This document shows positions 23,711 through 64,000 of a stretch of 64,000 nucleotides of DNA, one piece after another. The translations under genes were made by a program, and so were the position numbers. Below the pieces are notes generated by a model, which was not told where the DNA came from, searched no databases, and was given only the letters and a program-made list of their open reading frames with translations. How positions within the stretch are numbered: the first letter of the stretch is position 1; every line of letters starts with the position of its first letter. Origin of the DNA: Perna viridis (lineage: Eukaryota); assembly GCA_037379345.1 (NCBI GenBank), contig CM074523.1, positions 30,457,678-30,521,677 of the forward strand, written 5' to 3'.

Positions 23711-24310
23711 CCTTGACCACTATTTGATCTATGACAATTTACTAACGTCATTAATAATAGTGAAACCTGTCTAAACCGAACCCCTTTAGTTTGGACTTTT
23801 AAATGTGTTCGATTTGAAGATGTGTTCGGTTATCCAAGGTCCTTGTCCAATGGAATTAGCATAAACAACTTTAAGAAAGTCTGGTTTAAACAGGTCTTCG
23901 GATTATTGATGATCAGGGTTCAGTTTACAAAGCTTTCATTGTACTGTGTTTATTTGGCTGTTTGGCCGTTATTGCTTGATGTACCTCAAACAACATGTTT
24001 ACTTTTACTTGATGCACCTAACAATCAGATAAAATCATTTCTGTCAATGTTTTGAGTATAATTCACATTCCATCCGAGCAATGACTTTACGAAGAATCAC
24101 AAAGGAAGTGAAGTATATATTTAAATCACAAATTTGGAAGTGGACATGCTTGCTTCTGTAATTACTAAGACTGATTGTGATCCCAAGAATAAAACTAAAC
24201 AATGCAATATCGATATCATTGTCAATTTAAGACATATTTGAATAAAAATATTAAAATATGAAAGAGTTAAATCATATAATGAATCGATAACAACCAAAAC
24301 GAAGAGGGAA

Positions 24311-25228
24311 AGAGTAATCAAAGGAACCAAGGTTATAGCGGTAATCAAAGAGTAATCAAAGGAACTAAGGTTATAGCGGTAATCAAAGAGTAATCAAAGG
24401 AACTAAGGTTATAGCGGTAATCAAAGAGTAATCAAAGGAACTAAGGTTATAGCGGTAATCAAAAGAATGTAATCCATGGACAAAGACCAGACATAGAAGA
24501 GTAATCAAAGGAACTAAGGTTATAGCGGTAATCAAAAGAATGTAATCCATGGACAAAGACCAGACATAGAAGAGTAATCAAAGGAACTAAGGTTATAGCG
24601 GTAATCAAAAGAATGTAATCCATGGACAAAGACCAGATATAGAAGAGTAATCAAAGGAACTAAGGTTATAGCGGTAATCAAAAGAATGTAATCCATGGAC
24701 AAAGACCAGATATAGAAGAGTAATCAAGGGGACCAAGGTTATAGCGGTAATCAAAAGAATGTAATCCATGGACAAAGACCAGATATAGAAGAGTAATCAA
24801 GGGGACCAAGGTTATAGCGGTAATCAAAAGAATGTAATCCATGGACAAAGACCAGATATAGAAGAGTAATCAAGGGGACCAAGGTTATAGCGGTAATCAA
24901 AAGAATGTAATCCATGGACAAAGACCAGACATAGAAGAGTAATCAAAGGGGACCAAGGTTATAGCGGTAATCAAAAGAATGTAATCCATGGACAAAGACC
25001 AGACATAGAAGAGTAATCAAGGGGACCAAGGTTATAGCGGTAATCAAAAGAATGTAATCCATGGACAAAGACCAGACATAGAAGAGTAATCAAGGGGACC
25101 AAGGTTATAGCGGTAATCAAAAGAATGTAATCCATGGACAAAGACCAGACATAGAAGAGTAATCAAGGGGACCAAGGTTATAGCGGCAATCAAAAGAATG
25201 TAATCCATGGAAAAAAATCAGACATGGA
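24311..25228 (-). repeat. Tandem array of the Penelope-like 3' terminus: 3 x 38 bp then 11 x ~73 bp
   Basis: AGAGTAATCAA starts at 24311, 24349, 24387, 24425, 24498, 24571, 24644, 24717, 24790, 24863, 24936, 25010, 25083 and 25156. Confidence 0.95.
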
Positions 25229-25797
25229 AAACAGACATACACAACAAAGAACATAAAGTAACTAAAATCATACATACATAGTAACAAATAAGCAATCGAA
25301 CTCCACTTCAACTAACAACTGGGAGCACAGACCAGATGCACCGATAGGGTAAGTGTCCTCTGCTTTTCTAGAAACACCCGCCGGATTGTTAATAAAAAGT
25401 CAAGTCCGGGGTAGACGAGAGAGGGAAGGAACACTATGACATGTTGAACAAATCAGTTTTCATGGCGCAGATATATACACCGTAGCGATCCACGAGTTCA
25501 TGTTGACGACTATAAAACTTCTGTAGTGATGACTTCATTCTTGTAGCAACATGACCATGTTCCAGAAACCTATTTGTTAAAAGTCTAACGCGATACAAAA
25601 CGTCTGCGTAGTTTCGGCAAGGTCTGGCATAACGTACACGAGATGTGATATGAAACCTCCGTACGAAGGTGCTGAAGGGATGTTGCCACAGATAAAAGGA
25701 AAGTTGACAATTCTGAATAAAACGTCATCACGTTTGTCATAAAGTTTGTTCAATAGTTTTCCTTTACCATAAATTTCTGTGTAAGTCAAGATATGAC
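25156..25797 (-). mobile_element. Naiad-type Penelope-like element 3' fragment (body attached to the tail array)
   Basis: KLYDKRDDV.FRIVNFPFICGNIPSAPSYG motif plus UTR. Confidence 0.85.
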
Positions 25798-38437: not shown

Positions 38438-39303
38438 TTATGCTCTTGTTTCTGAAATAAGTTGTTGTAGTGCAGCATATGAATTTCGGATGGCCCTTTT
38501 TTCTTCATATCTTTTAATATTCAGTTCTCTGAACATACTGTGCCATTGATATTCACTGCCGTCTCTTGGGCCCTCAACCCTATCAAACATTATTCTCCTC
38601 AAATTGTCTCTAACAATGTCATCGAGCGTTTTATGTGAACCTCCCTGTCTTGCGTCCATAATTTTACGCATCTCCTTCCGTTTCCTATTGTTAAATGCAA
38701 AAGCATAGTCATCAGTGTTGGTTGAAGTCTGAGAGCGTAAAGTCGAAGATGATTCACACCTTTGTAAAATTTCAAATGATATCATAAGTTCTAGAAACTC
38801 GCTTTGTTGATTATAAAATGAAGTGGAAGCTGCAACATGTATCAAAGTTGAAATTCTATGCCATATCAGACCTAAGAACTGGACAACAAGTAAAATTCCG
38901 AAAACAACTGTAAAAGTTATCGATATAGGTTCTATCGCAAATGAACTTCTGGAACAGCCAACTGAAATTGTCAATGAGCCTGCGTAAGCGGAAGCTTGAG
39001 TTAGCGCGTACACAAGCGTAACAAGGAATGTATTCAGTAAAAAGAAGAAAAGACAACACTTATTTCTTAGTGCAACTAGGTCATCTTGGATTCGCTTTTC
39101 TTTTGTTTCATCTTTATCCAATGGTTTAAGGTATTTTTCAATCAATGTTTGCCAAAAAAGTTCTTCCTTCTGAGGCAATGCATCAGCAGACTGAAAATCC
39201 ACTGTAAAAGCGGTCTTGTGAAATCTAATATCGATATCGCCTTGCTCTATAGTACCATCACTTCCACGTTGTATTATATCACCGTCTATATTATTTTGCT
39301 CAT
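38438..39303 (-). CDS. CHS: Chitin synthase last exon (coiled coil, C-terminal TM helices, stop)
   Basis: TTTTACAG|AT acceptor; EELFWQTLIEKYLKPL...IQDDLVALRNK...EPIS...VQFLGLIWHR; TAA at 38438. Confidence 0.93.
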
Positions 39304-42300
39304 CTGTAAAAATATACAAAGGATATATGCATCAAGCGCTGATACAGAGTCAGACGTTCGAAATTCACTCTAGGCGCTGCAGCCAGCTCTCTCAGAAATT
39401 TCAAGAACCTTGAAAAGTCGGGAAAGAGTTTATGAGTTAACGCAACACTATCCGATTGTAAAACGACGTTTGGTTTGAATTATGACCGAGAATTTCGAAA
39501 GGCCTGTCTGCAGCGGACGAAAGACTATCGCTGCGTGGCGCTTGTGGATGTATATTAATAGCATAAATCACGATGCCGTACTCGGTTATGATTGGATAGA
39601 TTTGTGCATGTGACAAATAGAACAAAATACATTTGCATTGTATTGGAGAAAAAAAGAATCTTTTTTTTTTATATCTGAGAGAATAGTAATATCTTAATAA
39701 TATTATTTTCGCATTTCAAATTAGGAACTTATATATTTCTATGCTCTGTCGGTCATAAGGTATCATGCCTCGAAAGTTTACAAAAGTTCAAAACATAAAA
39801 CGCAATCAAAATTCCCTATAAACCATACCGTTATAACAAATAATACAAAGAAAACTGGTTCAACAGCCATTTGTCCTACGTTATCTAGGAAAAATAATTG
39901 AATCGAACTCTTACTGTTAACAACCTCCTCAGTTGGAACTTTTTCTTCATTTATCTGAGTTTTAGCATTCTCAATTTCATCCAGTTTTTGGGAAATTTGT
40001 TGAAACATTGAGTCTTCTCTCGAAATGCTTTTAGTTGGACAGCAGATACATCTGAAATCAAACAGGTAAATTTCAATATACTAGTCTCAGATAGAGTGTT
40101 AGTCGGTGCAGAAAGCCAAATTGGACGATATTAAAGTTTCATTACGATACCAATACAAAACATTTCCTTTCAACTACATTATGGCTTGAATATCAGCTAA
40201 ATTATTCACTTCAGTATTTTTACATAGTCAATAGAGGAAAACATACAAGCAAGTTATCTTAAATTTGAATATTTAAAAAAAAATGTATTTTTGAAGGAAA
40301 AAATCGTACTAAAGATCAAAGGAGGACAAGCAGTGTCGAATTGACCACCAGAAAAACAAGCAATGACGATGCACAACGAAACGACAAACAAAGAGCACAA
40401 TTAGGAAAACAAAGAACAAACCAACGACCAGGGGGAGACTCAAAGGTATCAATTCTACGAATGAATTTGTCATTTTTTTCTTTTTCCCCGAGTATGTAAT
40501 GTTTATATGATATTTCCTTCTTTTCCTATCTTCTTTATTAGTTATCATATGTTTACTCAATACTACAGTACAGGTATGAGGTAAGTTCCCGTTTGACGGT
40601 GTATGGGGTGATTAGGAATAGGATTGTTCTGCTTTTACAGTTGACACGTCAGTATTTTTCCTGATATTAACTGATCACTGCTTTTATCAAGAATAACAAG
40701 GATTTCACAGGGTTGTGAAATATTTTAAGACTATTCACGCTTAGAAAATATTAGTAGAAAAGAATGATGGGTCAGTATCCTCCTCATTTTTGAGATGTAA
40801 GCATTTGAAATTTTGCCGGGAAAAAGATTATTACAAACCCCGAAAAAATATTAAGGATTTTATATAATCTTCCCAAATGACATTTTAAGATATGTTTAAT
40901 GAAAATATAAAGAGAAAAGTGGGGGTAATTTGGCAAAATATTTAATGCTATGAAATGGATAAGTCCGAAAATCCGTCAAAAATGGCTTAAAATTATCAGC
41001 GAACTTCCTGAAATGGGTTTAATTGAGAAATCAGCTTAAAAATAGTAATATGCAAAATCTGCATACTTTACCCAAAAAATGCATCAAATGTTGAACAATT
41101 TAGTAATATTAAATTTGTTATTAACTTTTAAGAAAAATGAAGAGGGTGTTGGAACAATGGTGTATTAGCAGATAAATGGAAAATTAATATCACTAAAAAG
41201 CTATACCTAAAAAACTTTCCAACTGCTAAAGTGTATCCAGTGTCCTTTGTATCTGGCTTTCTTACTTCCTTGTCATTATACTGGTGTTGAACTGGAATGT
41301 CCTCTGTTTTTACTTCTCTGGTTCCCCACGATACGACATGAAGATTTCCGAGAGAGTAAAGCATTAACAACATTGACATAGAAGGGATACAGAGCAGATA
41401 TAGAATACCATGGATGATATTAGGTGCCTCCTATAATCAAAATTTGAAAACACTTAAAATATACAACCAAGCATGCTGTATCGCGGGTCATTTTCGCGAG
41501 GTTGTAATCTTGGCGTATTTAAGCAGTAGTCTTGCATTAAGCCTGATTGACAAGGAATTTCCCTTAAATGTTGTAGACAAAAATGTTTCATCTTTATTCA
41601 AATTCTGAACACTAATTATACTGTTATTTTAGTAGATTTCTAGATGTAAAGCTGTTATATAACTTGAAAAAGAAAACAAGTAAATAAAAGATGGCCGAAG
41701 CAGTATTTTTTGTTGTTGTTCTTTTTATTTATATTCTTTACATTTCATTCAGAAAATTACACATGGCACGCAATTTCAATTTTCGATACAGATTTCGAAC
41801 GCCACTAAGTTATCAGTATTTGGCCAATCGGGAAACTGTATTGCGATCAGAAGACTTGCGTCTCCATGGAAGAGCGTCTTTAAAGTCAAAGGGTAAAAAG
41901 CGAAGGGAAAATATAAATTTGAATAGAATATGGAATTAATGGTCTAATGAACAGAAGTTGAACTACAGCAAATTATTGTTCCATACTTTTTTTCGGTATT
42001 CAAGTTTTACAACTTACAATCTGATCTTGATTCCCCCTCGGTTTTCTGTTATGTCCCTCAGCACATGCAACATAACGGAAAAAACGGGATCGATGCGAGG
42101 TCGGCCATATAGTAGATTAGACAACTCACGGACAATCGAAGTACAATTAAAAACGAATGGTAGTTTTTTTTTTTTTTTTTTTTTTTTTTGTAAATTAAAG
42201 AGACTTTTAAGTTCGGACGGAAGGACTTGCTAACATTTCCTACCATGATTTGTCCGTTACGTAAGATGGATATACAATAAGTGTTCAGATTATAGTAAAA

Positions 42301-45300
42301 GAAATCATGATGTGTAGTGTGTTTACCTTAGGATGAAGTATCGCTGATAAAATAAATATGCCAACAACAAAACACAGAAATGTTGTAGTGGTCGAGCAGA
42401 ATCCGTCCTCAGCCGCTACTTTAAGTATTCCAACTAAGACCAGTATCATAGCAATGGAGTATACAGCCGACAAAATGCCGGCAAATAACAACTGAAAACA
42501 ATTCATATATTTTAGGTATCCGATTGTATTTTTATTTAATGCAACATTGTTTACACGTGATACACTAATATACAAACAAAATACTCGAAATACATGAAGA
42601 TATTGTGATTCGAATGGTACATGATGTTTTTCGATCAATAATTTATTAAACTTGTCTCTCGGTCTATAGTTGTTTTAGCGAGGAAGATTCGAAACCACAT
42701 TACTCTTTTTATTTAGTTTTTTTTCCCAAAACTATTTTGCCAGCGGAGTGATATTTCGTAAATAATTAACCAATTATGAGATCTTCGGATAAAATAGTAT
42801 AGAACAAATCCGCCCTTTCCTACTTATTTTTCACGTCAAAATTTTATCGAATTAGACTGGTTCCTAAAATCTAATGTACCTGTATATGCGTCTTCACAAA
42901 TAAACATGACAGTAAGAAAAGACCAACAGGAATGATGTTTAAAGTAAGAGATAGCCAAGCTGGAATGGACGGGAATGCAGTGATGATCGCTCCGACTATC
43001 ATTAGGAATATTGTCCCAGGAGTCAACAGAGAGGAAATGAAGAAAAACAATTGGTACAACATATACAGCCTGTAAATTAATACAATGAAATCTGTATAAA
43101 CCGAACCCATTTTACACTTTAGATTTGACTTAGTATACCAAGGTTCAAAATACATTCTCTGGTTGATATTAAGGATCTACAAAGGTCTCTGAATTAGATG
43201 GTTATTCAGGATTCGGCAGGTGCGGGATGAAAGTTTTTTTTTATGTCGTTTTGGTGTTTTGTAACACTATGTATTATTTTTTTATATTTCTGTCAAGTGG
43301 CATATGGGTTTAAAATGTATGGTATGACAATATTTCATAAAGCGACAATGAAACTACACCAACAAAGTGACAAATTATAAGCAAAGAGCATGTAAGTGTA
43401 ATAGATTGGGCTCATTCAACTGAAGGGTTCAATCTCTTTCAATAAGTCGCTCTTTACATTATCGATTACGGTGGGGTGGACTTTACCATACTACAGTACA
43501 CTGAAAGGATATTAACGAGGAATTATCATGAAGAATAGAATTCATTAAATAAGACGAAATTTGCAGACTAAAACACAACTATAGGGGAAAAAATCACATG
43601 ATGGTATAACGTGAAACGGACCTAGAAATACTTATATTCTCTTTCACTATTTGTCTCCAGTTCATCAAAAGGTCAAGGATGTTCCCCATTGTAGACGGAG
43701 ACCAACGACGACGTTGGTTATAAAACTCATAAAAACCCTCTGGGGCAAACGTGTACGAATCACTCTCAGCGCAGTACTCTACTCTGTAGCCATCCTTCAG
43801 AAGCAAGGTACACAGCCATCTGTCTTCACCTAAAAGAGTTATCAATAAGGAAACCAGTATTTTAGCGGATTCAAAAGAATGTAATCCAGGGACAAAGACC
43901 AGATATAGAAAACAGACATACACAACAAAGAATATAGAGTAACTAAAATCATACATACAAAGTAACAAAAGCAAATGAGCAACTCGGACTCCGGGAGCAT
44001 GGACTAAAGTTTTCATTAAATTTATAATCGCCATATCGGGAGATGTAAGATTTATTTTATCCTCTACCGGAAGAAGAAAAAAAGAATACAAAATAACCAA
44101 AATAATACGTACAAAGTTACAAAAGTTAATGAACAACTTGGACCCACTAAAAACTGGGAGCATGGACCAGTAGACGAAAGAGGAAAGGGAAACTAGAACA
44201 CGTTGAACAAATCAGTTTTCATGATGCACCGTAACGATCCACGAGATCACGATGACGACCATAAAACTACTGTGGTGATGATTTCAATCTTGTAGCAATA
44301 TAACCCTGTTCCAAAAGTCTAATTGTAAAATGTCTAGCGCGGTATAAAAAGTATACGAGCTGTGACATAACCTATGAGTTGTAATATGAAAACGCCGTAA
44401 GCAGGTGCTGTATTGTTGTTGCAACAGATGAAAGGAAAGTTGACAATACGAAATGAAGTCATCGCAATCGTCGTATAGTTTGGTCAATAGCTTTCCTTTA
44501 CCATCGATCCTAAAGTGTAGGTCAAGGTATGAGGCTAACTTCACATTTTTATCTCAAGTTCTTTAGGGTCGGTGCGTTGTATAAAATCCCCAAGACCTTC
44601 ATTGTTTAACGATTGTACATCATCTATATGGCGAAAACTGAGATAAAAAAAAACAAGTAGCATTCTGACAATGGATAAAGCATCATATTTTTTTCTTAAT
44701 TTGGTCCTATTTTAAGATATATTCAATGCATCCAGAAAACATGATATTAATTTACTGATTATATAGGGGAAATCAAAGTACAATTTTCTGCCATTTTATT
44801 AGGAAGTATTTTAACCATATTTGACCTTTGATGTTGTTTTTGGAGATCATGAAATGTCATTACATAAATTCTTATATAATGTAATTAAATTTCTGCGCTT
44901 TTATAAATCTATGTACCACACGTTATACACATTTTGCTTGGTTCGCATCATTATTCATTTAATGTCCTGTAACGCTCATTTGTCTGATAAAGGTGTCCGC
45001 TTATAGTATATTTTGTCCAGTGTCGATTGTCATATATTTAATTTTGTTTAGAAGCAATGTTTCAAATTTAACTTTGGGGTTTAGAGTAATTCATGCCAAT
45101 ATAATACTTCTTTTTCTTTTTGTATTTGCTTATTTCAAACATACAAGAATACATATTGGGGTACAGCTATGATTTTTTAAGAGGCTGTCCATGTAAAAAT
45201 CAGACAGATCGTATGATATTAGTAACCCAGGGTAAATTTTATTACACTGAATTTTTTGTCCCAATGTAGTGTTTATATCATATGTATGTCAAACAACACA

Positions 45301-54300: not shown

Positions 54301-57300
54301 TATACTTCACCTATTGCATAAAAAAATTCAATTTTTGAAGGCTATTGTAGAACCTCGAGATTGAGGACTTCAAGGCAAAACCACCTGACTGCTCTTGCAA
54401 AACACTTTCCATTCAAATATGGTCACTTCCTTTCACGTCGTTACGGGATATTTAAGCATCATCGAAAATGAATATCTGCGTAAGGTCCTTTCTAAAGGTT
54501 CCACGCTCCATAATTGTCATTATAACTTTTAAATTCTTATGGATGCCGTGGAGGACTACGCAAGGAAATTGATAAAACTAGAACAAGAAGACATTGATTC
54601 TCTGTCAGAATGGGTAAAGACTGTGATGTTAAAAGCTTTTTCTGGATAAGCAATCCAACTAATCCGAAGAGTACATTCACATACCGCTTTAAATCTGTCT
54701 TGTTTGATGCAACTTCTTCACCGTTTATACTACACTTTTGAAATGTTTCGAGAACAATCCAAGCTCATCATCTGACAGACTGAAGCAAGATTTTTATATG
54801 GATAATGTACTTTCCGGATTTTCAAGTAAAACTGATTTTGTAAACTTCTAACACGATGTACGTGCGTTACCCAGAGAAAGAGGTTTCAACCTAAGGTCAT
54901 CGACATCAAATTTACAAGAACTCAGAGAAATTGCAAGCACAGACAAAGTCATGGACTCAGCTATAGATATGAAAATATTAGGGATGTTATGGAAGAGTAA
55001 TCAAGGGAACCAAGGTTATAGCGGTAATCAAAAGAATGTAATCCAGGGACAAAGACCAGACATGGAAAACAGACATACACAACAAAGAACATAAAGTAAC
55101 TAAAATCATACATACAAAGTAACAAAAGTAAATGAGCAACTCGGACTCCACTAAAAACTAGGAGCATGGACCAGGTACACCGGTAGGGTAAGCGTCCTCT
55201 GCTTTCCTAGAAACACCCGCCGAATTGCTCATAAAAAGTGAAGTCCGGGTAGACAAACAAGGAAAAGAAAACTATGACCCGTTGAATAAATTAGTTTTCA
55301 TGGTGCTGATGTTTACACCATAACGATCCACGAATTCATAACAACCATAAAACTTCTGTAGTGATGACTTCAATCTTGTAGCAACATAATCCTGTTCAAG
55401 AAGCCTATTTGTTAGAGTTCTAGCGCGATACAAAAAGTCTGCGTAGTTTTGGCAAGCTCTGGCATAACGTACGAGTTGTGATATGAACACTCCATACGCA
55501 GGAGCCGAAGGGATGTTGCCACAGATGAAAGGAAAGTTGACAATTCTGAATGAAAAGTCATCACGTTTGTCGTAAAGTTTAGTAAATAGTTCCTTTACCA
55601 TCGATTTCTAAGTGTAGGTCAAAATATGAGGCTGACTTCACAGTGTCTGTAGTATCCTTTATCTCAAGTTCTTATGGGTACATGCGATGTATCAAATCCC
55701 CGAAATAAGGATTGTTTAAAGATAATACGTCATCTATATAGCGGAAACTGAGATTGAAGGATCTAGCCAAACGATATTCTTTCTTTCTGATCAGATCAGC
55801 TATAAAGTCAGCCTCATAAGAGTAAAGGAATAGGTCAGCAAGTAAAGGAGCACAATTTGTTCCTATTGGAATGCCGACCGTTTGTTGAAAAACACGTCCA
55901 TCACACTGGACAAATATGTTGTCGATTAAAAATTCCAGCATTTTGTAAACATATTCCTCTGATTCGTATATAAGGAACAATGGCCCGAATAAATCCAGCT
56001 CATAGATACAAATAAACTATGGAGTAAAACATAGATACAGATAAACTATCCTATCAAAACGTGACCATTGACGTTTGCAGTACTGATATTACGAAACATG
56101 AAATCTTGAGTCAGTCTTCCAAGATATTTGATCCTTTGGTTTACTTGGTTCTGTAACTGTAAGGGCTAAATATTCATGTAGTCCCTATGGAAAGAGAATT
56201 TCTGGTGGAATGAATACTCGCCATATGATGTACAAGATCAGTGGAATGCGTTAGCCACAGATCTGAAGGATGCGAGTACAATCGAAATACATCGATTATT
56301 GAACGATGTTGGTTTATAACAAGATATTCGTAGATGCCAGCCAGTCCGCTTATGGAGTATGCGTATATCGTGTAAATGGGACAAACGCACAATTACATGT
56401 GATCATAGCTAAAAACTGAGTGGCACCGTTGAAAACAATTACGTCATCTAAACTTGAACTGATTGCCGCTTTAATAGGAGCTAAGTTGGCGAAACATGTA
56501 TAAAAATTCTAGGAATTGAAACCATTCTGAAGCGATAATCAAATTGTGCTGAGCTGGATTTATCCGTAAAAAAACATTAAAACAGCTCGTGGCAAATAGA
56601 GTGTTGGAGTTTAAACATAGCGATATTGTCCGCCTGATAGTAATCCAGCAGATCTTCTTTCACATGGCCCTCGGGCATCAACGCTTAAATACAACACGTT
56701 ATGGTTCAACGGACCTACCTGATTCGTATATAAGGAACAATGGCCCGAATGGGAACGTACGTTCAACGTTTTGTCGGAAACTGCAGAAAGAACAAAAGTG
56801 AACGAGATGTAGGATCCCTTCATATAAATGCAATCCAATGCATCACGCATCTTGAATCGATCGATACAACATAGCATATACAGTGTTGAAATCTTGGATA
56901 TCACCTCAAGAAAGTAGAGCAGAATACCAATTGTGCGTCAATATCGATTCTTCTTAGACGGCCAAGGATTATGGCGTTCAGGCGGAAGGATAACAAATGC
57001 CGCTATATGTGAAACCACAAAATATCCGTACCGATTACCATCGCATTATCCGTTTACATCACTAATGATTATGGATGCACACAAACGACAGAATCATATT
57101 GGACTAAATGGAACTATTGGGTTATTTCGACAAACATTTTGGATTCCAAAAATCCGACAGAAAGTGAAGATGCTACTGCATTCATGTGCCTCATGCAGAA
57201 ACGTTCACAGACAACCTTATGTCGCACCGGAAACACCACCCACCTTTTACCTTTACGGGTGTCGATTTCAGTGGGGCGATGCATGCAAATACAATGAATA

Positions 57301-60300
57301 ATATGGATATTTAAGTATACTTGTTTTTATTTTTACATATGCATCGACTAGAGCTATACACATCGAAACTAATCCAGATTTGACTGAACGCTCATTCTTA
57401 TTAGAATTCCGTAGATTTTCGAGTGGTCGATCATTACCTCGAACAATGAAATACGACAATGTCATAACCTTTACAAGTGCAGCATCACAGATTTCCGATT
57501 TATTCAAAACTAACAATGTTCATTATCAACTTAGAGGCTATGGAACGTTTTGGAAATGTATACCCACTCGAGCACCGTGACATGGAGCTTGGTGGAAACG
57601 ATTAGTCGGACTCAACAAAGATGCCCTGAAAATGACACTAGAACGAGGGCATGTTAATATAAACACCCTACACACAGTTATTACAGAAATCGAGTGTACC
57701 CTAAATGACCATCCGTTAAAGAGCGTTTCAACAGATTCTAATGACGTTGATCCGTTATCTCCGTCTGATTTACTCTATGAACGCAAATAAAAAACTTTAC
57801 TATATCCGTCTACCACAGAAATGTCAGACATTCAAAAACTGATTACAAGTTCTCATATAGTAAAACGTACCAAGTATCAACGTAAGCTACTTTAACATTT
57901 CCAGAGTAGGTGCAAGAAAGAATACCTAACAATATTACGTGACTTATATAGAGAATATGGCAACAATACACAAGTGATAAAAATTGGAGACGTTGTACAG
58001 ATACATGAACAATCACCGCATACATTATGGAACGTCGGGATAGTTGTCGACCTTGTGCGCGGTGGAGATAGTTTGACAAGATCAGTGATCGTGCGTACAA
58101 AATATGGATTAGCGAATCGACCGATCGTGAAATTGTATCCACTGGAGATAACTGCAACCTAGTGGAAGTGCCAGAATACAAAACCAAAAACTGTAATATT
58201 AAGATGATAAAAATATTTCTTTCTATTCTGAGAGACCATTGCGAAGACGATTTTCTTTTTTAATTTCTGTTCAAAGTTTTATTCATTTCTTACTGAGTGC
58301 ATGAAAAATTCAGGTTAAGGTTCACTTTTCGCGCCCCGGAGAAACGTCGAGGTGAAAGGACTATAGTATTTTATGCGCTTTATGCATGCACTCTTACGCG
58401 TTACCGCTCTCTCATGTAACGTCATTATTGATTCTATGTATATAAGTCATTCTTCAGTCTTCCATTAAATGTTTATAGATAGACGTTGTTCTCACTTCTC
58501 ACGCTAATATTCTTCTATATCGTAAACAAAATTGGTCGTCACCATGAACTTGTGGATTGTTACGGTGAATCCATCTGCACCATGAAGACTGACTTGTTCA
58601 ACGTGCAATAGTTTTCCTATCTTCATTCGTTTCCCCCGTTCTTGACTTGTTATGAGCAACTCGGTGGGTGTTTCTAGAAAAGCAGAGGACACTTACCCTA
58701 CCGGTGCAGATAGTCCATGATCCCAGTTTTTAGTGGAGTCCTAGTTGCTCATTTACTTTTGTTACTTTGTGTGTATGATTTTTATTTACTTTATGTTCTC
58801 TGTTGTTTTTGTCTGTTTTCCATGTCTGGTTTTGTTCCTGAATTACATTCTTCTGATTTCCGCTAGAATATTGGTTCCATTTATTACTCATTTTAACATA
58901 TAGCGATCTCACCATTTTTAAGATATTTTCATACTCCTCGTCGCTCTGTTTCCTATTTAGCAGTAACGATAATTCTGTATGGATTCCACAATAGTGCGGT
59001 GTTATGAACATTCTGTAAAATATACTACTTTGTACATTTCCAAAAAAAAGAATTCCACTAAAGTAAAACTATGTCAGCAAAGCTGATAAAAATTCAAAGA
59101 ATATGACTGTAATATTAAGTCGGTCTATGAAAAAATAATAATCTAAATCACGAGGTGCACACTAAATAACCATGTTATTTTCAAGTTTGCACCACGGGCA
59201 TTGAGGTTATTTCAAATAGACCGAAAAAAAATGTAACAGTCACTCCTTATAATCTACGTATCAAAACTCAAACAGTAAATCATTAAAAGTCTTAAGGAGG
59301 TAGAACCAAGGTCAGGTACTGTTGCAAGTCGTTGGAACTTTTATGTTGAGCATTTTACACCAATCTTATATAAGCTTCAAAGTAACTTTGATTGATTTCA
59401 TTCTGTTTCAAATGAAAGCTTGAAAGGCTTTTGTGAAATTTAATATGATACAAACATATAACTGATTTCAAAAGTTATGTCCCTTACCTTAGGTGTACCT
59501 CATTACTCTTTAAGAGGCTGCATTTCAATGCAAAAATCAGGCATATCCTATAATATGGTTGGGACATGGTAAATTGTATACCACTGAATTCTTTGTTCAA
59601 ATGTATAGATTTATATCATATGCATATCAAAGAGTAAAAAAAAAGTTTTAATGCGACAATGCTTTCTTCTTGCTTACTTATATCTTATCTCTATTATCTT
59701 TGCACAGAATTGCTCAATATCATGTATGCAATCGTACCTTTGAAGTTCTCCAAGTTTATATCCATTAGTCGTCCAAATATACCACGTGGTACAAAGCACA
59801 GAGATGAATAACATAATTCCTGATGCAACAATTGGCCAAATGTCAGACATTTCCCCCAAGATCGTTAGATTCAAGTTAGAAAATAGCAAATCACAGTCGG
59901 TGAATTTAAGAATTGTTGGATCGTACATTAGTCCTGCCATTGCGAATGGTGCAGCTAAAATTACGATCATAAGTGGTAGTGAGAAACACAGCCGTTGACA
60001 TCCAACTACACATGCAGTTTTAGCAGCTTTTGCACATGTGTAGCTACTGCAAATGTTAATTATGGCAATGATGTAGGGTACGTAGGTAGAGCAAGAATCA
60101 TCGCTCCCCAAATTTAATGAACTAAATTTATGTTGCAGTTTCGTGCTTTCAAAGTTAAAAATTGCCCTGACACCGTGGGCAAATTTTTCTGCTTTTATAC
60201 CATGTATACCTATCACGCAAATGAAGCAGATGATTGTTTTCCACAAATAAGAAATAAGTACCATTTTTGTTCTCCTTGTTTGGTTAATCAATTTAAGATA

Positions 60301-63300
60301 TGGTAAATTGGTTGCCTTGTTAGCAACACCGGTGAAGTTTTCCCAATATTTTACCGAAAGCAAAATAGAAGAAACTGCAAAAATGATGCAATATAAAGTC
60401 CCATTTGTTCCCACCGATTTTCTTAAAATATAAATACATGTTAAAACAACTGCTCCCCAGTGAAGCAGCATCGCAAAAATCATCATACTCATTCGGATCA
60501 CTCTCCGTTTATTATTGTCACTGCATGCATTGATAAATTCCAAGATGGGTAGAACAAATGTTACAGCAAGATATATCAATGAAGCTGTTGGTGGGTTGAA
60601 AGCAGGTAGGATAATATATACCAGACAGGAAAGGGAGACTGAATGAAGACTCTCTATGATCAATATCTAGAGAAAAAAAAACAATGAAACGTTTAACCTG
60701 TCTATACCGAAACCTCCGAAGATTTGTTTTATCAAGCCTGGTGTTTGTTTTTAGAGGTTCAAAGGGTATTGATGTGAAGGGACTTTGGAAGATGTCAGGT
60801 TTGCACAGGTTAGTGGTTTAATTACTCAGGGAGGCAGTATAGACAGGTATCACTAAATATTGAACAATACTGACTTAGTGTTGAATGTTTTCTTTCATAT
60901 TGTTATAAAAAGTTTGATATATATATATATACATAGATAGATATTGCAAAGTTCAGTTAAAAAGTATTTTTTACTGATTTAAAATTTATTATTATTATTA
61001 TTACTTTTCTAGAGGTGAAAGATACTATGTAAAGTGAAATTAGTCTGGTTGTATCTTTGATTACTTAATTTGATTTACTGGTGACTTTTTGCGTCTATCT
61101 TTTTTTATATAAATGTACTACTTATTTTTTTGCATTCTTGTTGTGTAATCAGACACGCGGCTGTCCAGTCAGGAGAGGGTGGTCATTAACGTGTCTTTGT
61201 TTCGTTATTTGACCTTTTAGTTTCTTTTGAAGAGGTGTCATCGTTTTGTTACCAAGGATTGTATTACTTCTGTTGTCGTGGGAGTGGCTGATCCAGAAGG
61301 GGTGCAGGGTGTTGATACTTTTATTGTAAAAATTGTCAATTTCTTGCGTAAAATTGACAAAAAATGGCAATTAATGTCCTAGCAACCCCTTTTTCTGAGG
61401 AACCTCGACTGGCATCTTTCCTTTTCAAAGGACCTGGTTCTGGCACTACAGGGCCTTTCGGAGTTTTTTACTTAAAGATGTTATTACACATGTTGTACAC
61501 CTTTTGGTGATCTTTGTATATTTACTATATTGTATAAAGGTTACACGCTTGTGTATTTGTTGAGTTTCATTGTATCTGTTCTTTTTTCTATTGTTGAATG
61601 AATGGTGTATTAGGTTAAAGCAGTTAAGGTACTTTATGGTTAAAACGTACCAGAAAAAGATGACCCAAGGTAATGGAACGAGTTCTTTTCAGACACATTG
61701 TTTTCAGGGATGTCAATATGGCGACAAAATATGGCGCGATGATAACAGTGAAAACAGACCAAACCCACTTCTCATCAACCGTCGCTTGTGTGTTTTTCGT
61801 CGAATTATGTACTGGAACATCTGTGTGGTTTATATCATTATTTGTGTAGTTGATTTTAATCGAGTGCGAGGCCGGTGGGTGTAGATGCCAAATTAGTAAG
61901 TGTAGGGTAATTCGTGATAGAAGTCCTGTGCCGAGCACGATTAAGAATATGAAAAAGATGAAACAGATTGTCATCAGTTTCTCTGCTGTCCTCCAGAACT
62001 GCTCCATATCGTCCCGATTCCATTTAACAGATTGTTGAGGGAAGATGTCCCAACCTCTGTAAAAAATAACCCAAAAAAAGTATGATATAAAGTAATTATT
62101 AAACACTTCCAGTTGGCTTTAAAAAAAAACTGTTGGATTTCCAATGTGGATTATCTCCTGAAAGCAGATGGATTTGAATGAATGAATTACTTTTCATCAA
62201 ACATACCTATTAAGCGACTTATGTAGCCTTTTATGAGGTGTAACACATATTACAGAATTTGCATGACTCTTACAAAGTCTACTACTTAATAGCATTATTT
62301 GCCCAACAAGAATTAACTAAAGGTTTAAGTTATTTGAAACCCTGCTGTGGGGTAGTGCTAACCAAACAGTTTATGTCACGCATACTCATGAAACTATACA
62401 CCCTGCTGTGGGGTAGTGCTACCCAAACAGTTTATGTCACGCATACTCATGAAACTATACATCCTGCTGTGGGGTAGTGCTACCCAAAAAGTTTATGTCA
62501 CGCATACTCATGAAACTATACACCCTGCTGTGGGGTAGTGCTACCCAAACAGTTTATGTCACGCATACTCATGAAACTATACACCCTGCTGTGGGGTAGT
62601 GCTACCCAAACAGTTTATGTCACGCATACTCATGAAACTATACACCCTGCTGTGGGGTAGTGCTACCCAAACAGTTTATGTCACGCATACTCATGAAACT
62701 ATACATCCTGCTGTGGGGTAGTGCTACCCAAAAAGTTTATGTCACGCATACTCATGAAACTATACACCCTGCTGTGGGGTAGTGCTACCCAAACAGTTTA
62801 TGTCACGCATACTCATGAAACTATACATCCTGCTGTGGGGTAGTGCTACCCAAAAAGTTTATGTCACGCATACTCATGAAACTATACACCCTGCTGTGGG
62901 GTAGTGCTACCCAAACAGTTTATGTCACGCATACTCATGAAACTATACATCCTGCTGTGGGGTAGTGCTACCCAAACAGTTTATGTCACGCATACTCATG
63001 AAACTATACACCCTGCTGTGGGGTAGTGCTACCCAAACAGTTTATGTCACGCAAACTCATGAAACTATACATCCTGCTGTGGGGTAGTGCTACCCAAACA
63101 ATTTATGTCACGCATACTCATGAAACTATACACACTGCTGTGGGGTAGTGCTACCCAAACAGTTTATGTCACGCAAACTCATGAAACTATACACCCTGCT
63201 GTGGGGTAGTGCTACCCAAACAGTTTATGTCACGCAAACTCATGAAACTATACACCCTGCTGTGGGGTAGTGCTACCCAAACAGTTTATGTCACGCATAC

Positions 63301-64000
63301 TCATGAAACTATACATCCTGCTGTGGGGTAGTGCTACCCAAACAGTTTATGTCACGCATACTCATGAAACTATACATCCTGCTGTGGGGTAGTGCTACCC
63401 AAACAATTTATGTCACGCATACTCATGAAACTATACACACTGCTGTGGGGTAGTGCTACCCAAACAGTTTATGTCACGCATACTCATGAAACTATAAACC
63501 CTGCTGTGGGGTAGTGCTACCCAAACAGTTTATGTCACGCAAACTCATGAAACTATACACCCTGCTGTGGGGTAGTGCTACCCAAACAGTTTATGTCACG
63601 CATACTCATGAAACTATACACCCTGCTGTGGGGTAGTGCTACCCAAGCAGTTTATGTCACGCATACTCATGAAACTATACACCCTGCTGTGGGGTAGTGC
63701 TACCCAAACAGTTTATGTCACGCATACTCATGAAACTATACATCCTGCTGTGGGGTAGTGCTACCCAAACAGTTTATGTCACGCATATTCATGAAACTAT
63801 ACACCCTGCTGTGGGGTAGTGCTACCCAAACAGTTTATGTCATGCATACTCATTAACTAAGAACTAAAGAGCATAACTAGTGAAATTGTCCAGCTGAGTG
63901 AGATCAAGCCCTTACCTGGACACTCTGTCACTTCCATTTAAGCTTTCTTCAGTAGCCCTTGTCCTACTGTTAGCAGATGAAATTGGGGGTTCTTCGTCAT
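38438..64000 (-). CDS. CHS: Chitin synthase (glycosyltransferase family 2), multi-exon gene, 5' end beyond the window
   Basis: 16 exons with GT-AG sites and consistent phases: 63916-64000, 61651-62056, 59738-60666, 58913-59012, 52255-52385, 51661-51746, 49103-49202, 47376-47529, 46587-46797, 46008-46202, 43622-43829, 42880-43069, 42327-42491, 41207-41430, 39915-40051, 38438-39303. Motifs GWDIF, CATMWHET, FFDDAF, TPYGGRL, KRWSQ, LALDGDVDF, QKFEY, LCSPGCFSLFR, GEDRW, QRRRW, SWGTRE. Confidence 0.97.
39915..40051 (-). CDS. CHS: Chitin synthase exon (CICCP...QKLDEIE)
   Basis: TTTCAG| and |GTAAG sites, phase 2 to 1. Confidence 0.85.
41207..41430 (-). CDS. CHS: Chitin synthase exon (IPSMSMLL...SWGTRE)
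   Basis: TATAG|GAG acceptor; SWGTRE motif; phase 0 to 2. Confidence 0.93.
42327..42491 (-). CDS. CHS: Chitin synthase exon (TM helices, LHPK)
   Basis: TTTCAG| and |GTAAAC sites, 165 nt. Confidence 0.9.
42880..43069 (-). CDS. CHS: Chitin synthase exon (LYMLYQ...PGTIFLMIVGA)
   Basis: TTACAG| and |GTACAT sites, phase 2 to 0. Confidence 0.9.
43622..43829 (-). CDS. CHS: Chitin synthase catalytic exon (EDR, QRRRW)
   Basis: GEDRWLCTLLL...EFYNQRRRWSPST; TTTTAG| acceptor, |GTCCGT donor. Confidence 0.95.
43833..44640 (-). mobile_element. Rearranged Naiad-type Penelope-like 3' fragment abutting the catalytic-exon acceptor
   Basis: FRHIDD, ASYLDL, KLYDD motifs; two partial UTR copies; tail TTGATAACTCTTT ends at 43833. 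Confidence 0.8.
45657..45862. repeat. 69-bp minisatellite, 3 copies (intronic)
   Basis: TCTACATG at 45657, 45726 and 45795. Confidence 0.9.
46008..46202 (-). CDS. CHS: Chitin synthase exon (PMVWYQKFEY...LCSPGCFSLFR...QYDQG)
   Basis: Conserved motifs; AAAG| and |GTGAG sites. Confidence 0.95.
46587..46797 (-). CDS. CHS: Chitin synthase exon (VMYMYY...DGDVDF...GAACGRIHP)
   Basis: Conserved DGD motif; phase 0 to 1. Confidence 0.95.
47376..47529 (-). CDS. CHS: Chitin synthase exon (TPYGGRL...HLKDKSKIRHRKRWSQ)
   Basis: Translated by hand; not in the ORF track; phase 2 to 0. Confidence 0.93.
48070..48655 (-). mobile_element. Naiad-type Penelope-like 3' fragment (intronic)
   Basis: KLFDKRD, YGRHHELLGRYG motifs plus UTR. 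Confidence 0.8.
48963..49090. mobile_element. Short MITE-like inverted repeat next to an exon donor
   Basis: AATAAATCACGGAAACTCCATTTT...AAAATGGAGTTTCCGGGGTTTATT. Confidence 0.6.
49103..49202 (-). CDS. CHS: Chitin synthase exon (HIFFDDAF...VNNYVKTLI)
   Basis: TTCCAG| and |GTAAC sites; phase 1 to 2. Confidence 0.93.
50018..50398. mobile_element. Tc1/mariner-type MITE (TA|CAGT termini)
   Basis: TACAGTCCTTGAACCGATCCGCACAAC pairs with GTTGCACGGATCGGTAAAGGTACTGTA; subterminal GACCG repeats. Confidence 0.75.
51661..51746 (-). CDS. CHS: Chitin synthase exon (MDKHQ...DYDFE)
   Basis: TATAG| and |GTATAC sites; phase 2 to 1. Confidence 0.88.
52255..52385 (-). CDS. CHS: Chitin synthase exon (IYACATMWHETEKEMTQLLKSLF)
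   Basis: CATMWHE motif in a different frame from the ORF track call; TTCCAG| and |GTTAGT sites. Confidence 0.93.
53555..54625 (+). mobile_element. Naiad-type Penelope-like element N-terminal fragment (GIY-YIG endonuclease C-half + CxC linker), frameshifted
   Basis: ET..RLNKRMCGHRS, VYQHFNQ, REEYWIRGLGTAIPYWCND, FVNKGIDAINL, YSYTSPIA, KPPDCSC, LRKVLSKG, LSEWVK. Endonuclease before CxC linker is the Naiad order. Confidence 0.75.
54630..58162 (+). mobile_element. BEL/Pao LTR retrotransposon pol remnant (RT, RNase H, integrase, DUF5641-like tail), interrupted
   Basis: YRFKSVLFDATSSPFIL, FYMDN, KILGMLW, IFDPL, FVDASQSAYG, VAPLKT..SKLEL, VANRV, NPAD, HHCC zinc motif, GVDF, FRRF, WWKRLVG, GDVVQI...RPIVKLYPLE*. 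Confidence 0.9.
54993..55958 (-). mobile_element. Longest Naiad-type RT 3' fragment, nested in the BEL/Pao RT
   Basis: FLIDNIFV...FQQTVGIPIGTNCAPLLADLFL...FRYIDD, SASY.DL, KLYDKRDDF, UTR and tail. Confidence 0.9.
58500..58890 (+). mobile_element. Penelope-like 3' fragment ending ~22 bp from a chitin synthase donor site
   Basis: GRHHELVD codons, ATGAGCAACTCGG UTR motif, tail TTATTACTC. Confidence 0.8.
58913..59012 (-). CDS. CHS: Chitin synthase exon (MFITPHYCGIHTELSLLLNR)
   Basis: TTTACAG| and |GTGAGA sites; phase 2 to 0. Confidence 0.88.
59292..59506 (-). mobile_element. Kolobok-type MITE, copy 3 (intronic)
   Basis: TTAA|GGAGGTAG...GTACCTCA; interior matches 37939-38155. Confidence 0.75.
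59738..60666 (-). CDS. CHS: Chitin synthase exon (N-terminal multi-TM domain, YWENF, CFSLPL)
   Basis: 929-nt open exon; CTAG| and |GTACG sites. Confidence 0.93.
61651..62056 (-). CDS. CHS: Chitin synthase exon (GWDIF, first TM helices)
   Basis: TTTTACAG| and |GTACGT sites; phase 2 to 0. Confidence 0.9.
62341..63853. repeat. 61-bp intronic minisatellite, 25 near-identical copies
   Basis: Unit CCTGCTGTGGGGTAGTGCTACCCAAACAGTTTATGTCACGCATACTCATGAAACTATACAC; first start 62341, last 63805 (24 x 61 apart). Confidence 0.98.
63916..64000 (-). CDS. CHS: Partial upstream chitin synthase exon (DEEPPISSANSRTRATEESLNGSDRVS)
   Basis: Strong CAG|GTAAG donor; its only open frame ends in phase 2, matching the GWDIF exon. 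Confidence 0.75.

What the first reader, a model, noticed from the sequence alone, without database searches (positions are those of the whole stretch)
24311..25797. Telomerase-like tandem array built from a Penelope-like element's own 3' terminus
Seen: read in the cDNA direction (+), the insertion starts with three copies of the terminal 38 nt, then ten copies of the terminal ~73 nt, and the next unit runs on into the element body. Every unit restarts at the exact family terminus (AGAGTAATCAA). Known: Penelope-like RTs are the sister group of telomerase RT. Inference: short-to-long-to-processive order is what repeated re-priming on the RNA 3' end would leave. Against this, variants come in blocks (AAAGGAACT in units 2-7, AAGGGGACC afterwards) and the array is more homogeneous than the decayed body, which points to at least some later slippage. 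Either way a satellite is arising from a retroelement tail.
Basis: partly seen in the sequence, partly recalled or inferred. Interest (0 to 1): 0.7.

Follow-up and report, generated by a model that had tools for sequence, protein, structure and literature searches.

The report
Naiad retrotransposon tails repeated in tandem
This is a run of 13 back-to-back copies of the last 38 or 73 bases of a common jumping gene; the same two repeat lengths occur at hundreds of unrelated sites in the genome, likely because the element's telomerase-related enzyme restarts copying while it inserts, but this particular run was mostly multiplied later, probably by ordinary DNA slippage.

Summary
Observation confirmed: 3×38 nt, 10×73/74 nt, then the body of a Naiad Penelope-like element (about 24,500 near-exact termini genome-wide). 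The order is not a record of reverse transcription. A paralogue of the same insertion has 29 interleaved units, three others have none, and nine 73-nt units carry no private substitution, so today's array is recent DNA-level amplification.

The seed junctions are not chance. Exact counts: 859 at position 38, 177 at 73, 23 at 110/111, 7 at 59. Positions 38 and 73 rank first and third in the first 260 nt for the element's own target motif (T-N-A-A-A). The 38 junction outnumbers the 27-nt slippage junction, which has longer homology, 1,469 to 82. At other loci, units are as old as their insertion, mostly carry private substitutions, form no separate subfamily and sit on shorter bodies. A minority are nested re-insertions (8 of 59 loci at site 73; 0 of 48 young loci at site 38).

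Best reading: restart of cDNA synthesis at the terminus during insertion (inferred, untested), then slippage. An earlier AI note of this scan reported the 38-nt stutter elsewhere in this genome.

The parts
24281..24311 (+). Insertion flank ending in the target motif; shared with four paralogous loci (C13 20.56, 7.84, 16.51 Mb; C12 10.76 Mb)
24311..24424 (-). Three 38-nt units, element positions 1-38 counted from the 3' terminus, ending at the best target-motif site
24425..25155 (-). Ten 73/74-nt units, element positions 1-73, four variable columns, no singleton substitution in nine 73-nt units
25156..25433 (-). 3' UTR of the Naiad copy, beginning with unit 14
25434..25796 (-). Decayed C-terminal part (thumb region) of the Naiad reverse transcriptase, frameshifted; cut on the far side by a later deletion of about 1 kb

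Best explanation
The array consists of 38- and 73-nt tail units of a Naiad Penelope-like retrotransposon whose two junction types were likely written by the element's own reverse transcriptase restarting at the terminus during insertion, and whose present 13 copies were likely multiplied much later by DNA-level slippage or unequal exchange. Shown: the family inserts after a T-N-A-A-A motif; positions 38 and 73 of its tail are among its best matches to that motif; junctions fall almost only there and to the base. Inferred: a nascent cDNA that stops at 38 or 73 ends like a freshly cut target, so it can prime again at position 1. Because every copy sits behind such a motif, a read-through RNA would carry the complementary bases just past the start site, an A-B-A' layout of the kind described for DRT10 and telomerase. 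Inferred for this locus: the seed is older than the split of three close paralogues, one of which lost it again.
For: Recurrence: 1,469 junctions at site 38 against 24,500 termini, both 29-nt patterns with up to 1 mismatch; 48 of 48 sampled loci have their own flanks. Precision: 96 of the first 100 listed are exactly 38 and 94 of 100 exactly 73. Site choice: a matrix from 139 unrelated flanks ranks 38 first and 73 third of 252 positions; site 59, nearer and with longer homology, has 7 junctions against 177; the 27-nt junction with 8-nt homology has 82; the junction 5-mer comes from the element, not the flank (15 against 859). Timing: bodies with arrays are as diverged as ordinary copies (median 3.5-3.9% against 3.7%) and units have 172 private against 43 shared substitutions. 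In 26 arrays of 3-6 units the shared fraction is 0.152, below 'dimer first, rest later' (0.272, P=0.01) in a simple simulation. Same-event signs: bodies are shorter (median 186 against 330 nt, p=0.0005); no leftover old body in 48 of 48 young site-38 loci; behind an old-type tail the next unit is old-type in 11 of 18 clear cases against a 22% background (p=0.0004). Late amplification here: 0 singletons in 657 nt of units against 9 private changes in 640 nt of body; 13, 29, 0, 0, 0 units at five paralogues.
Against: No biochemical test. Nested re-insertion into older copies makes the same junctions: 8 of 59 site-73 loci keep the old remainder, 7 of 18 clear old-tail loci have a young inner unit, 4 of them with a remainder, and 5 of 7 site-73 dimers with an old-type outer unit have a young inner unit (one of the 5 read from a truncated unit). 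Outer units tend to be more diverged than inner ones (80 against 52 substitutions, p=0.054). The simulation also rejects 'all units at insertion' (0.046). The samples are young-biased and come from the first places listed. Only 1 of 147 ordinary termini had a 38-nt unit. Site 47 scores well on the matrix but gave no junction in the fetched loci (not counted genome-wide). Three of five paralogues lack the array, so an origin after insertion at this locus cannot be excluded. The RNA beyond the terminus was not seen.
Confidence: 0.55

Rival explanations
1. The endonuclease cuts the element's own DNA at site 38 or 73, either just after synthesis or in an older copy, and a new round of target-primed reverse transcription starts there; the distal part is kept, lost, or rejoined by homology. 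Units are still RT-made, but by repeated cutting, not by primer realignment. Later slippage enlarges the array.
For: Directly seen in a minority: remainders starting at the duplicated target and old-outer/young-inner pairs. Penelope endonuclease is reported to recognise its own tail and to nick in its own pLTR (PMC11167929). At this locus the inner terminus has the family base at position 11 while outer units share a locus-specific base with the two outgroup paralogues.
Against: Chance nested insertion predicts about 6-33 loci at site 38 against roughly 560 loci with an exact junction (65 loci per 100 listed junctions times 859, counted by hand). 0 of 48 young loci have a remainder (Fisher p=0.007 against site 73). 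Shorter bodies are not expected from late re-targeting. The variant that re-cuts a nascent copy is not separable from the best explanation by sequence.
Confidence: 0.27
2. Both seed and array arose by ordinary replication slippage or microhomology repair after insertion, with no part for the element's enzymes.
For: The flank here offers 6-7 nt of microhomology to site 73; three paralogues lack the array; amplification of existing units is clearly DNA-level (76-nt higher-order unit in L305).
Against: Longer homologies give far fewer junctions (27 nt: 82 against 1,469; 39 nt: 3 of 100; 59 nt: 7). The flank homology here predicts 74, not the 73 observed. Units elsewhere share few substitutions.
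Confidence: 0.1
3. One master copy with a repeated tail was the source of all array-bearing insertions.
For: Would give units as old as the insertion with private substitutions.
Against: Array-bearing bodies carry both alleles at all 10 subfamily markers in the same proportions as ordinary copies (Fisher p 0.28-1.0); arrays occur in old-type and young-type tails; unit numbers and 38/73 mixes differ between loci.
Confidence: 0.04
4. One reading: all 13 units and their short-to-long order were laid down by RT in one event.
For: Terminus anchoring; 6 of 11 mixed arrays elsewhere run short-to-long.
Against: Units of an insertion whose body is about 12% from typical family copies would each carry several private changes; they carry none. 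The sister array is interleaved and twice as long.
Confidence: 0.02
5. Assembly artefact.
For: No record spans the array in four public runs.
Against: Blocks of variants, a different array at the paralogue, and hundreds of similar loci.
Confidence: 0.02

Closest known systems
Naiad clade of Penelope-like elements (PMC8557442; passages, sections 6 and 15, first supplement hits)
   Same: N-terminal GIY-YIG, CxC, GxKY, DKA, C-terminal RT, tens of thousands of 5'-truncated copies, partial tandems, no hammerhead found.
   Different: The paper describes an optional single 30-40-bp tail and partial tandems of longer copies; in what I read it does not describe iterated tail units of fixed lengths set by the target motif. 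Here nearly all copies include the 38 nt, and no second start at 39 was found.
PAc Poseidon element in vitro (PMC11167929; main text, parts 1-2 of 4)
   Same: A fixed RT start site, AT-rich cutting on both strands, nicking inside its own pLTR.
   Different: PAc has two start sites bounding the tail and priming without homology; repeat addition is not reported. Here there is one start site and the tail end acts as a restart point.
Telomerase and DRT10 repeat addition (PMC12632851; passages)
   Same: Iterated copying of a bounded RNA stretch would need only a 2-5-nt A-B-A' match, which a read-through Naiad RNA would have.
   Different: Those enzymes repeat 6-9-nt units by design and DRT10 fails with a 20-nt B segment; here units are 38-111 nt, occur at a few percent of insertions at most and have no known function.
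Template jumping by R2 RT (PMC8857657; abstract) and template slippage at UnaL2 3' repeats (PMC3747384; one passage)
   Same: Non-LTR RTs can restart on a template end or slip on terminal repeats.
   Different: Those concern a few bases or separate templates, not tail units defined by the endonuclease target motif.
Non-LTR retrozymes as PLE derivatives (10.64898/2026.07.22.740005; abstract) and multicopy head-to-tail Chlamys elements such as MRC1 (PMC8557442; passage)
   Same: Tandem arrays derived from PLE ends.
   Different: Retrozymes carry a hammerhead ribozyme and are mobile; no Rfam family reached threshold in a long copy here, and these units are not seen to move on their own.

Membership tests
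Naiad PLE | GIY-YIG endonuclease N-terminal to RT, none C-terminal | tested here: met
   In three long family copies the GIY-YIG-like frame lies about 3 kb from the terminus and the RT frame ends 280 nt before it; Pfam GIY-YIG E=0.0009, below the curated cut-off. The window copy is too short to hold it.
Naiad PLE | CxC motif, GxKF/Y and DKA in place of DKG | tested here: met
   DCSCK, GPKY and PADKA read in L207, compared with section 6 of PMC8557442.
Naiad PLE | CX2-5CxxC finger upstream of GIY-YIG | tested here: met
   Cys cluster upstream of the GIY-YIG motif in L208.
Naiad PLE | No canonical hammerhead ribozyme | tested here: met
   No Rfam hit at gathering level in L208; 2 weak unrelated hits. 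One copy only.
Naiad PLE | Placement in the Naiad clade of an RT tree | not tested
   No tree built; Pfam RVT_1 only E=0.045 on a partial frame, no PDB hit.
PLE 30-40-bp optional tail | Copies start at either of two sites 30-40 nt apart | tested here: not met
   115 segments start at position 1, one at 38 and one at 43, in 650,870 bases.
Telomerase-type repeat addition | Product realigns on a repeated stretch of the same RNA template | tested here: inconclusive
   Realignment on the 8-nt internal repeat (27-nt unit) is rare; realignment on the 2-5-nt target-like motif fits the junctions, but the RNA past the terminus was not observed.
Telomerase-type repeat addition | Several rounds in one event by the RT alone | not testable with these tools
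   Sequence ages favour several units near insertion time but cannot separate re-priming from re-cutting.
Telomerase-type repeat addition | Action at chromosome ends with a dedicated template RNA | tested here: not met
   Loci are interstitial on all large contigs listed; the template is the element's own tail.

The most novel reading that the evidence does not exclude
A Naiad reverse transcriptase, from the retroelement group closest to telomerase in eukaryotes, performs true repeat addition in vivo: its cDNA stops at a target-like motif 38 or 73 nt from the start, realigns on the complementary bases past the start site and is extended again for several rounds, seeding hundreds of minisatellites of predictable length.
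Probability: 0.4. Interest if true: 0.8.

Novelty: new variant of a known kind. Interest (0 to 1): 0.5.

Why it matters
How Penelope-like elements build their tandem and tail structures is stated to be unresolved (PMC8557442, section 15), and an in-vitro system now exists for one of them (PMC11167929). This family gives a base-exact prediction: restarts at 38 far more often than 73, then 110/111, and almost none at 27, 39 or 59. If the RT does it without its endonuclease, repeat addition is a latent property of telomerase's retroelement relatives. Either way it shows a route by which a retroelement seeds minisatellites whose unit length is set by its own target motif. The single array in this window matters less: it is a late amplification product.

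Tried and rejected
Reading the paralogue without an array (C13 7.84 Mb) as proof of origin after insertion: rejected as proof, because the 73-nt units keep the ancestral base at position 60 where all three close bodies share a derived one, which points to loss there. Second-strand slippage onto the flank: rejected. A second RT start at position 39: not found. Flank motif differing between subfamilies, as a test of RNA pairing: no clear difference in 56 against 51 flanks, uninformative. RNA fold of the 3' end: z = -0.35, no support for a template-boundary structure. Public runs: only short-read contigs; identical records cross the locus-type 73 junction in all four runs but none has 31 letters on both sides, so none counts as bridging; no verdict on array length. 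A direct genome-wide search for two termini at any spacing could not be run, so unit lengths other than the five junction types searched are known only from fetched loci. The focal-array figure printed at the end is distorted by the indel unit and was redone. The binomial used a miscount (12 of 19) and was redone with 11 of 18. Literature searches found no paper describing iterated PLE tail units; most subscription papers are not in the library, and only the first hits of the PMC8557442 supplement were seen, where one Chlamys family is noted with tandem repeats at its 3' end.

Full report
Observation. The array is as described: three 38-nt units, ten 73/74-nt units and a fourteenth start that runs into the element body. 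The true terminus is the G at 24312; the A before it is part of the target motif. The body's far end at 25796 is a later deletion of about 1 kb relative to two paralogues.

Identity of the element. The body matches about 15 fragments in the window and has 13,882 first-look candidates in the 723-Mb genome; a 29-nt terminus pattern has 24,500 matches with up to one mismatch. Three long copies show an N-terminal GIY-YIG region with a Cys finger, then CxC, GPKY, DKA and RT motifs, and no C-terminal nuclease. These are the Naiad features listed in PMC8557442. No RT tree was built. The element reads on the minus strand, so the plus strand is the cDNA direction.

History of this locus. The same insertion with the same flank exists at four other places. 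The body gives the order C12, then C13 16.5 Mb, then an unresolved trio of the window, 20.56 Mb and 7.84 Mb (19, 23 and 6 shared changes). Unit numbers are 0, 0, 13, 29 and 0. The 20.56-Mb array runs 2×38, 3×73, 4×38, 2×73, 4×38, 14×73. In the window, nine 73-nt units differ at four columns, with no singleton in 657 nt, while the body has 9 private changes in 640 nt. The exact locus-type junction occurs 27 times, all in these two arrays. Present copy number and order therefore come from recent DNA-level amplification (inference, strong). The units keep the ancestral base at position 60 where the three close bodies share a derived one, so the seed predates the trio and the 7.84-Mb copy probably collapsed. 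Whether the seed goes back to the insertion itself cannot be decided: that needs three losses, the alternative needs one loss and one reversion or re-insertion.

The junctions are a family trait. The site-38 junction has 1,469 matches. With 14+10-nt exact patterns the counts are 859 near 38, 177 near 73, 23 at 110/111 and 7 at 59. Of the first 100 listed, 96 are exactly 38 and 94 exactly 73. All 48 site-38 loci fetched (the first ones listed, contigs C1-C3) have different flanks and 2-25 units. In an ordinary sample of 147 termini, 5 had same-strand family sequence upstream (ending at 38, 73, 124, 634 and 2756) and 3 had opposite-strand sequence, so such units mark a few percent of insertions at most.

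What picks 38 and 73. The 139 ordinary flanks give T at -5 (68%) and A at -3 to -1 (76-88%); short target duplications of 4 nt or more were found at 28 of 108 ends against 12 expected. Scored on the element's own first 260 nt, this matrix ranks 38 first, 219 second, 73 third and 111 among the next. Homology does not explain the choice: the 8-nt internal repeat gives 82 junctions against 1,469, the 39-nt and 59-nt junctions with 5-nt homology are rare, and the junction 5-mer is the element's, not the flank's (15 against 859). Site 47 scores well but was not seen in fetched loci and was not counted genome-wide.

When the units are made. Bodies with arrays are as diverged as ordinary copies (medians 3.5% for 16 dimers, 3.9% for 23 multimers, 3.7% for 85 singles), and units carry 172 private against 43 shared substitutions (this set still held one spurious group from L069 and counted L117 and L213 as two, both removed). 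For 26 arrays of 3-6 units the shared fraction is 0.152; simulation gives 0.046 if all units date from insertion, 0.272 if only a dimer does, 0.355 if none does. Both extremes are rejected, so many units are early and some are later. Ten subfamily markers show no separate lineage, and array-bearing bodies are shorter (median 186 against 330 nt, p=0.0005).

Nested re-insertion is real but a minority. At site 73, 8 of 59 loci keep the old remainder after the new copy, several behind a duplicated target (2 of the 59 rows were unresolved). At site 38, none of 48 young loci does; 3 candidates were each preceded by a degraded terminus. An older tail variant, about 22% of termini, gives a natural test. 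Of 25 loci with an old-type outer tail, the next unit is old-type in 11, young-type in 7 (4 with a remainder) and unclear in 7 (two assignments by eye). Same-type excess is significant (p=0.0004), although later local duplication would also give it. In 22 site-73 dimers (1 of 23 dropped as truncated) outer units have 80 and inner 52 substitutions (p=0.054), which leans towards re-targeting for that class. Chance nested insertion predicts 6-33 loci at site 38, against roughly 560 with an exact junction (hand count).

Mechanism. Three processes overlap. First, the element's enzymes treat sites 38 and 73 as targets or primers (shown by site choice and by nested cases). Second, most young arrays look made at or near insertion without a remainder; I favour RT restarting from a cDNA end that resembles a cut target (inferred). 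A read-through RNA would carry the complementary bases past the start, because every copy lies behind the motif; DRT10 needs only 2-4 such bases but tolerates only short units (PMC12632851, passages). Re-cutting of the nascent copy cannot be told apart by sequence. Third, slippage and unequal exchange enlarge some seeds; L305 shows an old-plus-young dimer multiplied as a 76-nt unit, and the window array is of this kind.

Comparison with what is known. Partial tandems and an optional 30-40-bp tail are known for PLEs (PMC8557442; PMC3846280, passages). PAc starts internally at two sites and can nick its own pLTR (PMC11167929). Template jumping and slippage are known for other non-LTR RTs (PMC8857657, abstract; PMC3747384, passage). 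My nine searches found no description of iterated tail units with target-motif-defined lengths. An earlier AI note of this scan (e1-9551546, seen, after my analysis) reached a similar reading for the 38-nt unit at other loci of this genome; it is not independent support.

Verdict. The telomerase-like reading of this array's order is wrong, and telomerase-like restart as the source of the seeds is plausible but unproven. New variant of a known kind; interest 0.5.

Noticed in passing
window 38438-39331, 43594-44211, 59674-60666 (minus strand): Exons of a chitin synthase-like gene (Pfam Chitin_synth_2, E=1e-9, on the middle frame). The first frame ends in a stop, so the array probably lies downstream of the gene.
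   Followed up: partly
G000:C13 30.48, 20.56 and 7.84 Mb (L031, L032): At least 9 kb around the array is a three-way segmental duplication at 93-96% identity, with local inversions.
   Followed up: partly
runs X1, X2, X3, X18 on window 24240-24800: Depth of contigs over the locus-type 73 junction relative to the flank differs widely between samples (for example 3135 against 28 in X3, 74-260 against 55 in X2), a weak hint of large length polymorphism.
   Followed up: no
L305 (G000:C12:23.74 Mb): Array alternating old-type and young-type 38-nt units: a nested dimer later amplified as a 76-nt higher-order repeat.
   Followed up: partly
L145: A young-type 38-nt unit lies outside an old-type copy, the reverse of nested insertion; may be re-insertion at the original target site.
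   Followed up: no
family 3' UTR, positions 36, 72, 108: Runs of four A recur every 36 nt, and positions 3-15 resemble 44-56, as if the tail itself grew by old duplications; a few 41-nt units use this homology.
   Followed up: no
window 62339-63853: 61-bp satellite, 24.8 copies, 97% matches.
   Followed up: no
window 56918-57301: Open frame with an integrase zinc-binding domain (E=3e-9), probably an LTR-retrotransposon fragment.
   Followed up: no
L206 (G000:C12:10.76 Mb) against L033: A younger family copy of about 480 nt has inserted into the older paralogous copy at element position about 1127.
   Followed up: no
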